From the NCBI RefSeq assembly GCF_058153355.1, contig NZ_CM177019.1: a stretch of 64,000 nucleotides of DNA; one strand, written 5' to 3'. Position numbers: made by a program. Shown here in pieces: positions 27,001 through 30,000 of this stretch. Positions within the stretch are counted from its first letter, which is position 1. The number at the start of each line of letters is the position of its first letter.

Positions 27001-30000
27001 ACCCGGCTTTTTCTGCCTGATCGGCCAGTGAGCGGGTGATCCACGTTGACCAGCCGACAGGAACCAATGCAAAAGTTAGCCCCCAGATAATCGCCACGCC
27101 GGTAGCAACGATTTTATCGCTTCCCCACAACGTCAGCACCAACGCACTCACAGCCAGTATTAACGGCGCGCCTGCTAAGGCCAGTTTTACCGAACGTTTA
27201 AGAATGAACGACGAAAGCGACGTACCAATAAAGCTGGCGATACCAAAACTCAACAGCACCAGAGTTAAGCCATCCACGCCGAATCCCGCCAGGTTCATAT
27301 ACACCGGGCGAATATACGTGAAGAAAGCAAACTGCCCGGCGAAAGACATGAAGATGGCGATCATCCCTGCCATCACACCCGGACGTTGTAATAAGCGGAA
27401 AGTATTTTGTTTCTGATGCGAGGGTTCGCCTGGCAGCGAAGGCAATGATTTGATAATCCAGAAAATACACAGCACGCCCATCACCGCCGCCGCATTAAAG
27501 ACATTGCGCCAACCGATAAGCTCGCCTAAAAAACTGCCCAACGGTGCGGCAATCACCAGCGCAATAGAAACCGCGCCGAAGATCACCGACAGCGCCTTCG
27601 GCACCGTACGCGGCGGCACCAGACGCATGGTCAGCGACGCCGACATCGCCCAGAACCCGCCCAGCGCCAGTCCCAGACAGGCACGACCGATTAAAAGCAA
27701 ACTGAATGAGTTAGCAAAGGAAACCAGCAAGCAGGAGAGCGTCAGCAAAACGGCAAACAAAATAACAACGTAGCGGCGGTCAGTGGCCTGAATTGTCTGG
27801 GTAATAAACAAACTGGCAAACATTGCCACAAAGGCGGTCACGGTCACCGATTGCCCGGCAACCCCTTCCGAAATGCCTAAATCCTGGGCCATTGGCGTCA
27901 ACAAACTGACGGGCAAAAACTCAACGATAATCAGACAGGCGACGCAAAACGCCACCGAGAAAACGGCTGACCAGTTCGGTCGGGTGATGGCATCCGCGCC
28001 GCGGTTTTCGGCAATAAATTCACTCATGGTGTTACCCGTGGCATGTTTCAGAGGAAAAGCCGACCACTTTAACACTGAAATGTGTGACACATTTAACGTT
28101 TTTGCAACTTTTACGGTGTTGTGGGAAAAGTTCGAGGCTGCTCGAAGAAATAAAAATCATAGGGCAAGCTGATATGCATTTTCGCGATTGGGTTGGGAAT
28201 AAGGGATAAAGTATTGCACTTGGTGATATACTTTAATAACAGGACCTCAACGATATGCGCGTGTTTAAAACCAAATGGTTTGCAAGGGAAGCCAGGTCTC
28301 ATGCAATAACAGATGAAGAGTTGTGCCGGGCCATTTTAGAAACGGAGCAAGGTAAAGCTGATGCACTTGGTGGTGGCGTTTTTAAAAAGCGCCTTCACCA
28401 AAATCGTGAGCGTGCAATTATTCTGGCAAAAGGGGGAAGTAATTGGTTTTACACGTTTTTATATGCAAAACAGGATATGTCGAACATCAATAGTCAGGAA
28501 CTGGCTGGGTTTCGTGAACTTGCAAAGCATTATGCCTTCCTGACGAAAGCCCAACTAACAGCAATGATTAACACTAAAGAACTGACAGAGATCTGCTATG
28601 ACTGCAAAAACTAAATTTAAAAGTCCTGCATTTGAGGCTATTCACAGCGCAGCTGCTGGATTGTCCAGCGTCGATGCTATTTCTGCCGAAACGATGCGTA
28701 CTTTTGACAAAGCCTGCCTGACCAGCGTGCAAGACTTACAACCTGTTGAGATAAAAGCACTGCGGGAAAAATTAAAAGTGAGTCAGCCCGTCTTCGCTCA
28801 CTATCTCAATACCAGCGTTTCAACTGTACAAAAATGGGAAAGTGGCGCTAAACGCCCCAATGGCATTTCATTAAAACTGCTCAGCATTGTGCAAAAACAC
28901 GGGCTGGAGGTGCTGCTGTAAATAGAACGTAGATAATGCGTTCACCTACTGTCAGTTCCGATGCCGGATGCGGCGTGCACGCCTTATCCACCCACCAGCT
29001 CAGGCGCGGTCTGTAGGCTAATAAGACGAAACGGTTTTAATGCAGCCAGTGAACGCCCTCAGCAGGCTGAAAGAATGCGTTATAGCGCATCTGAAAAGCA
29101 TTAATATCCTGCATTTCAGGTTCGGTTTCGCGCAGAAAACCCAGCGCCAGCCTGACCTGAGCATCGGTAATCGGCGCGGCAAGACGGGCTTTTTGTAAAA
29201 TCCGATGCCATTGCAGCAGGTTCTGTTCGCTTCCATCGACAATGACAATTTGCCAGATGAGCAACACCTGCGCGGCGTTTTGCAGGTGCGACTCATCCGG
29301 GCGATGCAAATAACGTAAAAATTCCTCACCGGCTGACTTTCCCATTTGATCAACCATCGACTCCACGGGTACGACATCAATATTCAGCCGATCGCTGAGA
29401 CGGCGAATCGCCTTTCTGGCCCCGGATGTCAGCACCCGAAAACCAATTACAAACACCACCGCCAGCGTAGCGAGCATTATCCAGATCATGAGTTCTCCTG
29501 CGTAATCAGAACTCATGATATCTGGAAACCCTCGCCAGTTACTAATCCACCAAAATAATCTTCAGAGCAAACAGAGCTGCAACCACCACCACACACAGGT
29601 TCAGATCGCGCCAGCGCCCGGTGCACACCTTCATGATGCAGTACGACATAAAGCCAAGCGCAATCCCTTCGGTGATCGAGAAAGTAAAGGGCATCATCAC
29701 CGTAGTAATAAATGCAGGTACTGATTCGGTAAAATCATCCCAGTTAACGCGCGCCAGGCTTGAGGTCATCAGCACGCCAACAAAGATTAACGCTCCGGCG
29801 GTGGCGTAAGGAGGGACCATTGCCACCAGCGGCGAGAAAAACATAACCAACAGAAACATAATGCCGACCACGACCGCAGTCAGCCCCGTTCGACCACCAA
29901 CTGCCACACCAGAAGTACTTTCAATATAGGCGGTAACAGACGAGGTGCCGATAAACGCGCCCGCCACCGAACTGACGCTATCAACATATAGCGCCTTATT

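What the first reader, a model, noticed from the sequence alone, without database searches (positions are those of the whole stretch)
28255..28921. Toxin-antitoxin-like gene pair inserted between nepI and yicN
Two small overlapping genes (119 aa then 107 aa, 17-bp overlap) that I do not recall at this position in K-12. The downstream product is an unambiguous XRE-type HTH protein; the upstream one resembles RelE/ParE-superfamily DUF1044-type toxins. Toxin-first order matches higBA-like modules. A REP-like element follows at 28962-28995.
Basis: partly seen in the sequence, partly recalled or inferred. Interest (0 to 1): 0.4.

Follow-up and report, generated by a model that had tools for sequence, protein, structure and literature searches.

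The report
HigBA2-type toxin-antitoxin pair beside nepI
The two small overlapping genes are a real but ordinary toxin-antitoxin pair of the Vibrio cholerae HigB2/HigA2 kind, already annotated in about a third of complete E. coli genomes, and K-12 more likely lost it than this strain gained it.

Summary
A 119-aa ORF (28255-28614) and a 107-aa ORF (28598-28921) overlap by 17 bp between nepI and yicN.

- **Antitoxin:** it has a HigA2-like XRE helix-turn-helix domain.
- **Regulation:** a palindrome (core GCAC-N3-GTGA, 28216-28226) merges with an extended -10 box (TGATATACT). The same arrangement sits at the same distance from the start codon in 40 of 43 related loci.
- **Selection:** both genes are under strong purifying selection (dN/dS about 0.06-0.12).
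- **Distribution:** 1,717 of 5,426 complete E. coli genomes carry the module, including O157:H7 (ECs_4597/4598) and ST131. It is always chromosomal, single-copy and at this site. RefSeq already names it a type II TA system. Another 3,668 genomes have the K-12 allele.
- **Polarity:** the pair also lies next to nepI in Salmonella (STM3777/78), Citrobacter and Klebsiella. "Inserted" is therefore probably the wrong direction, and K-12-type strains more likely lost it.
- **REP element:** it is shared with K-12 and is not part of the cassette.

This is a known kind of system and of low interest. No toxicity data exist for the E. coli copy.

The parts
28122..28963 (.). Strain-variable segment (842 bp) that holds the whole module. 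K-12-type genomes have an unrelated 43-bp sequence here.
   Evidence: Local alignments to K-12 stop at window 28121 and resume at 28964. The K-12 43 bp matches the cassette no better than shuffled sequence does. GC is 43.6% against 52-53% in nepI and yicN.
28207..28235 (.). Predicted operator. It is an imperfect inverted repeat, TAAAGTATTGCAC / GTGATATACTTTA, with core GCAC-TTG-GTGA at 28216-28226.
   Evidence: The inverted repeat has 13-nt arms, 85% complementarity and a 3-nt spacer. A CAC-N3-4-GTG core lies at a fixed 38-43 nt before the start codon in 40 of 43 related loci (39-41 nt in nearly all), 32 of them with exact GCAC..GTGC.
28224..28232 (+). Predicted extended -10 promoter element TGATATACT, lying inside the right arm of the operator.
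   Evidence: Read from the sequence. TGnTAYAnT is conserved in 40 of 43 loci, at 30-35 nt before the start codon in 39 of them. The consensus -35/-10 scan found no canonical promoter, so this rests on conservation only.
28241..28244 (+). Likely Shine-Dalgarno sequence (AGGA) for the toxin gene, 10 nt before ATG 28255.
   Evidence: Read from the sequence. 'acaggat' is conserved in the homologous loci.
28255..28614 (+). Toxin gene, 119 aa, HigB2-type RelE/ParE-superfamily (PF06296).
   Evidence: RefSeq annotates it as 'type II toxin-antitoxin system RelE/ParE family toxin' but starts it at GTG 28261.
28598..28921 (+). Antitoxin gene, 107 aa. It has a conserved N-terminal segment (residues 1-45) followed by a HigA2-like XRE helix-turn-helix domain (about 46-103). 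It overlaps the toxin gene by 17 bp.
28962..28995 (.). REP-like palindromic element directly after the variable segment. It is shared with K-12 and so is backbone, not cassette. It may serve as the 3' end or stabiliser of the transcript.
   Evidence: It aligns with the K-12 intergenic REP-like sequence. It gives a sub-threshold naRNA4/REP match. No intrinsic terminator was found.
26843..28027 (-). nepI, the divergently transcribed left neighbour. This adjacency is conserved across genera.
29037..29489 (-). yicN, the right neighbour.

Best explanation
This is a chromosomal type II toxin-antitoxin operon of the Vibrio cholerae higBA-2 kind.

Inferred from homology: the first gene encodes a RelE-fold toxin that binds the ribosomal A site and cleaves translating mRNA, using R46, R53, Y70 and K72. 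The second gene is translationally coupled to the first through a 17-bp overlap. It encodes an antitoxin whose conserved N-terminal segment wraps and neutralises the toxin, and whose C-terminal XRE helix-turn-helix dimer binds a single palindromic operator.

Shown by sequence: that operator overlaps an extended -10 box, which would give negative autoregulation.

Evolution: the module is old at this site in Enterobacteriaceae and is kept by purifying selection. It is a presence/absence polymorphism in E. coli, in which K-12-type strains carry the derived, module-less allele.
For: Family and fold:
- The toxin matches PF06296 at E 8.8e-42 over the full length.
- V. cholerae HigB-2 is itself a PF06296 member: 34.5 bits against a cut-off of 27, and PMC11980606 says the same.
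- The AlphaFold2 model has pLDDT 88.5 and pTM 0.81.
- The top ten Foldseek PDB hits are all VcHigB2, with probability 0.99-1.00.

Active site:
- Profile alignment puts VcHigB2 R51, R64, Y82 and K84 opposite window R46, R53, Y70 and K72.
- Alanine substitution of each of these residues in VcHigB2 lowers activity 170- to 3000-fold (PMC5416850).
- K72 is invariant, and R46 and R53 are at least 90% conserved, in 27 homologues.

Antitoxin:
- It matches HTH_3.
- Its best PDB sequence match is HigA-2 (5jaa, 5j9i) at E 8e-10.

Operator and promoter:
- They are conserved in 40 of 43 loci.
- The architecture matches the single inverted repeat over the -10 box described for VcHigA2 (PMC11006873).
- In Salmonella, the only Dcm site in the nepI-STM3777 intergenic region lies at the centre of the predicted operator. 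A methylome study lists an unmethylated CCWGG site upstream of nepI/STM3777. This is consistent with permanent occupancy of the operator.

Selection and distribution:
- dN/dS is 0.06-0.12 for both genes.
- 1,717 of 5,426 E. coli genomes carry it, once each and on the chromosome.
- Synteny with nepI holds in five other lineages.
Against: - No experiment exists for the E. coli proteins. Searches for ECs4597/ECs4598 and the WP accessions found nothing.
- The only toxicity test found for the Salmonella orthologue STM3777 reported that over-expression 'only slightly attenuated' E. coli growth. That paper is retracted.
- The enterobacterial clade lacks six residues of the basic beta2-beta3 loop. Replacing that loop in VcHigB2 costs 120-fold activity.
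- Sequence similarity to VcHigB2 is too low for direct detection: phmmer and a profile search against PDB found nothing, and hhalign probability is only 33%. The residue mapping therefore rests on a weak alignment plus fold similarity.
- Binding of the antitoxin N-terminus to the toxin is not shown. The fused-chain model gives confident helices but no interface information.
Confidence: 0.8

Rival explanations
1. The module is domesticated or attenuated. The toxin has become weak or inactive as a nuclease, and the pair is kept mainly because the antitoxin serves as a transcription factor, with the toxin as a co-repressor.
For: - The antitoxin is more conserved than the toxin: 84.6% against 78.8% mean pairwise identity, higher in 90% of pairs.
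- The toxin lacks six residues of the basic loop that contributes 120-fold to VcHigB2 activity.
- STM3777 was only slightly toxic in a now-retracted test.
- Several other genera keep an intact antitoxin beside a broken toxin gene.
Against: - The toxin is under purifying selection as strong as that on the antitoxin and the flanking genes (dN/dS 0.06-0.12).
- All four catalytic-equivalent residues are retained, and K72 is invariant.
- E. coli RelE itself has a short, structured loop at this position (PMC5416850).
Confidence: 0.1
2. The toxin has a RelE fold but a target other than ribosome-bound mRNA, as Salmonella SehA does. SehA is HigB-like yet inhibits RNase III instead of cleaving RNA.
For: - PMC12817084 shows that a HigB-like fold does not guarantee nuclease activity.
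- PF06296 core members, including this one, carry a C-terminal extension (helix 98-106 plus strand 110-115 in the model). VcHigB2 lacks it: it matches only positions 8-96 of the 120-position Pfam model.
Against: - SehA belongs to a different family. It is 40% identical to K-12 HigB and its critical residues do not exist here.
- SehA lacks conserved active-site residues, whereas this toxin keeps the VcHigB2 set.
Confidence: 0.05
3. A mobile cassette recently inserted into an empty nepI-yicN spacer.
For: - The cassette has lower GC than its neighbours: 43.6% against 52-53%, with GC3 40-44 against 56-62.
- Distant family members (58% identity or less) sit on 128 plasmids.
- Representative genomes of several other Escherichia species gave no hit.
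Against: - There are no flanking direct repeats and no integrase or transposase.
- The site is the same in Escherichia, Salmonella, Citrobacter and Klebsiella.
- nepI-linked copies from four of those lineages cluster in the tree.
- Synonymous divergence between genera is saturated, like that of the flanks.
- No close relative is on a true plasmid or phage.
Confidence: 0.05

Closest known systems
Vibrio cholerae HigB-2/HigA-2 (VCA0468/VCA0469; PDB 5JA8, 5JA9, 5JAA, 5MJE, 8A0X)
   Same: - Same Pfam toxin family, PF06296.
- Closest solved fold.
- Equivalent catalytic residues: R, R, Y, K.
- Toxin-first operon.
- The antitoxin has a disordered-type N-terminal segment followed by an XRE HTH domain, and is the best PDB match.
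- A single inverted-repeat operator reaches over the -10 box.
   Different: - Only about 14-22% identity in the structural alignments, and undetectable by phmmer.
- The basic beta2-beta3 loop is six residues shorter.
- There is an extra C-terminal helix and strand of about 25 residues.
- The operator sequence differs: GCAC-N3-GTGC against TGTACGC-N5-GCGTACA.
- The HigA2 base-contact residues R68, E71, N72 and R77 correspond to S75, Q78, K79 and A84 here (my reading of the alignment, using the contact residues named in PMC11006873).
- It sits at a conserved core-genome site, not in a superintegron.
Salmonella Typhimurium STM3777-STM3778
   Same: It is the orthologue. The toxin is 70% identical (P0037). 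The 17-bp overlap and the position next to nepI are the same. It appears in published lists of Salmonella type II TA modules as RelE-superfamily.
   Different: The right-hand neighbour in Salmonella is a PTS/aldolase cluster, not yicN. The operator centre holds a Dcm site (CCTGG) that E. coli lacks. The equation of P0037 with STM3777 is inferred from the nepI/STM3777 adjacency; it was not checked against the LT2 sequence.
E. coli K-12 RelE/RelB, and HigB/HigA (YgjN/YgjM)
   Different: The Pfam families differ: RelE is in PF05016 and K-12 HigB in PF09907, according to PMC11980606. RelBE has the antitoxin-first order and a ribbon-helix-helix antitoxin.
Salmonella SehA/SehB
   Same: Toxin-first order, an XRE antitoxin and a HigB-like fold.
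   Different: SehA is 40% identical to K-12 HigB and its critical residues lie in its own alpha4 helix. It inhibits RNase III. It is not the orthologue of this toxin.
MqsR/MqsA
   Same: The antitoxin HTH region gives weak matches to MqsA models.
   Different: The matches are below both curated cut-offs (26.3 against 30 bits; 41.1 against 61.8 bits). There is no N-terminal zinc-binding CxxC domain. The toxin is not MqsR.

Membership tests
Pfam PF06296 ('RelE', ex-DUF1044; HigB2-type toxins) | Score above the curated gathering threshold over the whole model | tested here: met
   142.6 bits against a cut-off of 27, E 8.8e-42; residues 1-113 on model positions 1-120 of 120.
Pfam PF06296 ('RelE', ex-DUF1044; HigB2-type toxins) | RelE/ParE (BECR) fold: N-terminal helices packed on an antiparallel beta-sheet, with a C-terminal helix | tested here: met
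Pfam PF06296 ('RelE', ex-DUF1044; HigB2-type toxins) | Equivalents of the VcHigB2 active-site residues R51, R64, Y82 and K84 | tested here: met
   R46, R53, Y70 and K72 by hhalign (probability only 33%). The mapping agrees with family conservation: K72 is invariant, and R46 and R53 are at least 90% conserved. It was not checked in 3D superposition.
Pfam PF06296 ('RelE', ex-DUF1044; HigB2-type toxins) | Long basic, flexible beta2-beta3 loop (VcHigB2 residues 54-63) | tested here: not met
   The enterobacterial clade has a six-residue deletion here; distant family members keep G(K/R)SGGYR. This is a feature of VcHigB2 and not a Pfam criterion.
Pfam PF06296 ('RelE', ex-DUF1044; HigB2-type toxins) | Ribosome-dependent mRNA cleavage and growth inhibition | not testable with these tools
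   This needs expression and in vitro translation assays. The only related datum is weak toxicity of STM3777, reported in a retracted paper.
Type II toxin-antitoxin operon, higBA arrangement | Two small co-oriented genes, toxin first, overlapping or closely coupled | tested here: met
   There is a 17-bp overlap. The same overlap is found in about 30 related loci.
Type II toxin-antitoxin operon, higBA arrangement | Antitoxin with a DNA-binding domain (XRE HTH) related to a proven antitoxin | tested here: met
   HTH_3 at 32.9 bits against a cut-off of 23. HigA-2 (5jaa, 5j9i) at E 8e-10 over residues 46-102.
Type II toxin-antitoxin operon, higBA arrangement | Palindromic operator overlapping the promoter (autoregulation) | tested here: met
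   Inverted repeat at 28207-28235. The core and the extended -10 box are conserved at a fixed distance in 40 of 43 loci. Binding itself was not tested.
Type II toxin-antitoxin operon, higBA arrangement | Antitoxin segment that binds and neutralises the toxin | tested here: inconclusive
   The N-terminal 45 residues are highly conserved (81.9% mean identity). They are predicted as helices with pLDDT 91-96 in a linker-fused paired model. No contact or PAE information was available.
SehA/K-12 HigB family (PF09907) | Sequence membership, with the SehA critical residues Y53, D61, H88, Y91, K93, T95, Y97 and Y98 | tested here: not met
   Pfam reports only PF06296. SehA is described as 40% identical to K-12 HigB, with a different residue set.
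MqsA / NadS antitoxin families | Score above the curated cut-off; for MqsA, an N-terminal zinc-binding CxxC pair | tested here: not met
   MqsA Pfam 26.3 against 30 bits; TIGR03830 41.1 against 61.8 bits; NadS 41.3 against 60 bits. There is no CxxC motif in residues 1-45.
Known anti-phage defence systems (PADLOC-DB 2.0) | Match of the toxin to a defence-system model | tested here: not met
   The toxin matched no family. The antitoxin gave only generic HTH matches.

The most novel reading that the evidence does not exclude
The nepI-linked clade may be a vertically inherited, domesticated HigBA2 module kept at one core-genome site since before Escherichia, Salmonella and Citrobacter diverged. 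Its toxin is shorter in the basic ribosome-contact loop and carries a C-terminal extension that VcHigB2 lacks. It may therefore be attenuated or retargeted, as SehA is to RNase III. Its unusually conserved antitoxin may then act as a bona fide chromosomal regulator.
Probability: 0.12. Interest if true: 0.5.

Novelty: already known. Interest (0 to 1): 0.15.

Why it matters
It matters little beyond correct annotation. The module is one more RelE-superfamily TA locus that separates E. coli lineages: O157:H7, ST131 and about a third of complete genomes have it, while K-12-type strains do not. That makes K-12 a natural null host for testing it.

Three points have modest value:
- The polarity of the polymorphism is probably loss, not gain.
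- The RefSeq start codon of the toxin is probably six bases too far downstream.
- The operator and extended -10 architecture is conserved across the family and could be used to predict regulation of PF06296 modules.

The one open question is whether the loop-shortened enterobacterial toxin is a fully active mRNA interferase.

Tried and rejected
- **SehAB equivalence.** I suspected the Salmonella homologue might be SehA. The SehA papers show a different family (40% identical to K-12 HigB) and a different residue set, so I rejected this.
- **Direct sequence link to a solved toxin.** phmmer and a 27-sequence profile against PDB returned nothing relevant, although VcHigB2 is in PDB. The link came only from Pfam, hhalign and fold searches.
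- **Deletion scar.** I looked for homology between K-12's 43 bp and the cassette. The best local score was matched or exceeded by 17 of 500 shuffles over the whole cassette, and by 774 of 1000 shuffles over the left 80 nt. No conclusion follows. The alleles differ by replacement, so polarity rests on outgroups only.
- **Consensus scans.** These found no sigma-70 promoter and no intrinsic terminator in 28000-29100. The extended -10 box was found by eye and supported by conservation.
- **Rfam.** Only a sub-threshold REP-derived naRNA4 match and one chance match were found.
- **PADLOC and PHROGs.** There was no defence-system model for the toxin, and only function-unknown phage families matched.
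- **Literature.** Searches for ECs4597, ECs4598, WP_001521686 and WP_000125643 found nothing.
- **Fused toxin-linker-antitoxin AlphaFold model.** It gave confident antitoxin N-terminal helices but no way to read the interface.
- **Plasmid and phage searches.** No close relative is on a true plasmid or phage. The top 'plasmid' and 'phage' hits are mislabelled chromosomes or chromosomal contigs.
- **Link to the neighbouring iatC island.** I rejected this because loci L003 and L005 have the module without iatC.
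Full report
**Observation.** The window holds an ATG-initiated ORF of 119 aa at 28255-28614 and a second of 107 aa at 28598-28921. Both are on the + strand and overlap by 17 bp. They lie between nepI (26843-28027, - strand) and yicN (29037-29489, - strand). In K-12 MG1655 these two genes are separated by only 210 bp, with no gene between them.

**What the proteins are.**
- The upstream product matches Pfam PF06296 ('RelE', the former DUF1044) over the whole model at E 8.8e-42.
- The downstream product matches HTH_3. It also gives sub-threshold matches to the MqsA and NadS antitoxin models.
- Its best match among solved structures is the V. cholerae antitoxin HigA-2, E 8e-10 over residues 46-102.
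- The toxin has no sequence-detectable relative in PDB, either alone or as a 27-sequence profile.
- V. cholerae HigB-2 is nevertheless a PF06296 member. I confirmed its sequence against 5ja9_C and its Pfam assignment at 34.5 bits against a cut-off of 27. A 2025 survey says the same (PMC11980606).
- An AlphaFold2 model of the window toxin built on 27 homologues is confident: pLDDT 88.5, pTM 0.81.

**Active site.** Hadzi et al. (PMC5416850) showed that alanine substitution of R51, R64, Y82 and K84 of VcHigB2 lowers activity 170- to 3000-fold.
- Profile alignment places these opposite R46, R53, Y70 and K72 of the window toxin.
- In the family alignment K72 is invariant, and R46 and R53 are at least 90% conserved.
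- These residues fall on the predicted strands 42-46, 53-60 and 63-71.
- The alignment itself is weak (33% probability), so the mapping is inferred, although it is coherent.

Two differences from VcHigB2 stand out.
- The enterobacterial clade lacks six residues of the basic beta2-beta3 loop. Replacing that loop costs VcHigB2 120-fold activity.
- Core PF06296 proteins, including this one, have about 25 extra C-terminal residues, modelled as a helix and a strand.

**Regulation.**
- An imperfect inverted repeat, TAAAGTATTGCAC / GTGATATACTTTA, lies at 28207-28235.
- Its right arm contains TGATATACT (28224-28232), an extended -10 motif, 31 nt before the start codon.
- The generic promoter scan found nothing here, so I tested conservation instead.
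- In 43 related loci from Enterobacterales to Burkholderia and Thiohalobacter, a CAC-N3-4-GTG core lies 38-43 nt before the start codon in 40 (39-41 nt in nearly all). It is exact GCAC..GTGC in 32.
- TGnTAYAnT is present in 40 loci, at 30-35 nt before the start codon in 39 of them.
- The Escherichia lineage has GTGA in place of GTGC in the right half-site.
- This is the same architecture as in V. cholerae, where a single inverted repeat runs from after the -35 box over the -10 box. The sequence differs: TGTACGC-N5-GCGTACA (PMC11006873).
- In keeping with that, the HigA2 base-contact residues R68, E71, N72 and R77 align with S75, Q78, K79 and A84 here. This is my reading of the alignment.

An independent hint of in vivo occupancy comes from Salmonella. 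The only Dcm site in the nepI-toxin spacer of locus L047 is the CCTGG at the centre of the predicted operator. A Salmonella methylome preprint lists an unmethylated CCWGG site upstream of nepI/STM3777. The link between the two is my inference.

**Coupling and neutralisation.**
- The 17-bp overlap and the antitoxin N-terminus (MTAKxKFKSPAFEAIHSAA) are conserved in about 30 loci.
- A paired, linker-fused AlphaFold model predicts antitoxin residues about 10-24 and 30-40 as helices at pLDDT 91-96.
- No interface information was available. Toxin binding by this segment is therefore inferred from VcHigA2 (PMC5416850), not shown.

**Selection.**
- dN/dS is 0.06-0.12 for both genes against Escherichia sp. 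E1V33 and a divergent E. coli. It is 0.06-0.11 for the toxin against Citrobacter and Klebsiella. These values are similar to nepI, yicN and adeQ.
- Unusually for a TA pair, the antitoxin is the more conserved partner: 84.6% against 78.8% mean pairwise identity, higher in 90% of pairs.

**Distribution and polarity.**
- 1,717 of 5,426 complete E. coli genomes carry the segment. It occurs once each, always on the chromosome.
- Carriers include O157:H7 Sakai (ECs_4597/ECs_4598), EDL933 and ST131 strains.
- 3,668 genomes have the K-12 allele.
- RefSeq already labels the genes 'type II toxin-antitoxin system RelE/ParE family toxin' and 'helix-turn-helix domain-containing protein'.
- The alleles are homologous up to window 28121 and again from 28964. 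Between these points the window has 842 bp and K-12 has 43 bp that show no significant similarity to the cassette.
- The REP-like element at 28962-28995 lies in the shared part.

Evidence that the module is old at this site:
- The same toxin-antitoxin pair lies between nepI and yicN in Escherichia sp. E1V33, E. coli E69, Citrobacter amalonaticus, Klebsiella indica and K. michiganensis.
- It lies directly beside nepI in Salmonella enterica. That copy is evidently STM3777/STM3778.
- In a neighbour-joining tree of the concatenated proteins, the nepI-linked copies of Escherichia, Citrobacter, Salmonella and K. indica form one clade (no bootstrap).
- Synonymous divergence between genera is saturated, like that of the flanks.
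- There are no flanking repeats and no mobility genes.
- No close relative is on a true plasmid or phage. More distant members (58% identity or less) are on 128 plasmids.

Evidence pointing the other way:
- The cassette has lower GC than its neighbours, 43.6% against 52-53%.
- Representative genomes of other named Escherichia species gave no hit.

On balance the module is old at this site and K-12-type strains have lost it. 'Inserted' describes the comparison with K-12, not the history.

**Comparison with what is known.** The closest characterised system is V. cholerae higBA-2.
- It shares the family, the fold, the catalytic residues, the gene order, the antitoxin architecture and the operator logic.
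- It differs in the loop, the C-terminal extension, the operator sequence and the genomic setting.
- I considered Salmonella SehAB and rejected it, because SehA belongs to the K-12 HigB family.
- The SehA work is still a caution that a HigB-like fold need not mean nuclease activity.
- The only toxicity datum for the orthologue STM3777 is 'only slightly attenuated' growth, reported in a retracted paper.
- I found no paper on the E. coli genes.

**Verdict.** This is a correctly spotted, ordinary HigBA2-type type II toxin-antitoxin operon. It is already annotated by homology and is widespread.
- My confidence in that identity and the inferred mechanism is 0.8.
- The residual uncertainty is whether the loop-shortened toxin is fully active (rival, 0.1) or retargeted (rival, 0.05).
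- Novelty: already known. Interest: 0.15.

Noticed in passing
window 28255-28263: RefSeq starts the toxin CDS at GTG 28261 (354 nt, 117 aa) in every annotated genome I looked at. All 27 aligned homologues begin MR[VI]FKT with R2 invariant, and the Pfam model aligns from residue 1. The ATG at 28255 is therefore the likelier start.
   Followed up: partly
window 17254-26640 (- strand): A 3,128-aa ORF with many near-identical Ig-like repeats lies directly beyond nepI. RefSeq annotates it as the inverse autotransporter adhesin IatC in a near-identical strain. K-12 has yicS next to nepI instead. Two Escherichia loci (L003, L005) have the TA pair without iatC, so the two polymorphisms are independent.
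   Followed up: partly
window 32791-37373: After adeD the window has a yicS-like fragment (32791-33009), a LacI-family regulator (33048-34040, - strand), PTS IIB (34288-34611), PTS EIIC (34624-35955) and a family-1 glycoside hydrolase (35955-37373). In K-12, and in the closest TA-bearing strain, adeD is followed directly by uhpT.
   Followed up: partly
L050 3842-5175; L051 2043-2101 (O157:H7 TW14359 and Sakai): In O157:H7 the adenine permease gene adeQ, two genes downstream of the module, is annotated as frameshifted or a pseudogene.
   Followed up: no
loci L016, L028, L029, L044, L045, L046: In several other genera (Mixta, Lonsdalea, Pantoea, Brenneria, Pectobacterium polonicum, Winslowiella) the toxin ORF is truncated or fragmentary. 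In L028, L045 and L046 the 107-aa antitoxin ORF is nevertheless intact. This looks like toxin decay leaving an orphan antitoxin or regulator.
   Followed up: partly
L047 3955-3975 (Salmonella enterica): The only Dcm (CCWGG) site in the nepI-toxin spacer lies at the centre of the predicted operator, ATCACCTGGTGCT. A methylome preprint lists an unmethylated CCWGG upstream of nepI/STM3777, which would fit constant operator occupancy. The E. coli operator has CTTGG here and so has no Dcm site.
   Followed up: partly
loci L006-L009, L012, L014, L018-L028: Toxin-antitoxin pairs and their upstream regions are nearly identical across different families of Enterobacterales (Erwinia, Edwardsiella, Enterobacter, Pectobacterium, Serratia). 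They form a short-branched cluster in the tree, in contrast to the long branches of the nepI-linked copies. This suggests either very slow evolution or horizontal spread of that subtype. I did not examine their genomic contexts.
   Followed up: no
window 26843-28090: The mechanical nepI ORF extends to a GTG at 28090 (415 aa). The annotated nepI starts at 28027 in RefSeq strain 2013C-4282 (394 aa). The 5' extension would run into the shared nepI-toxin spacer.
   Followed up: no
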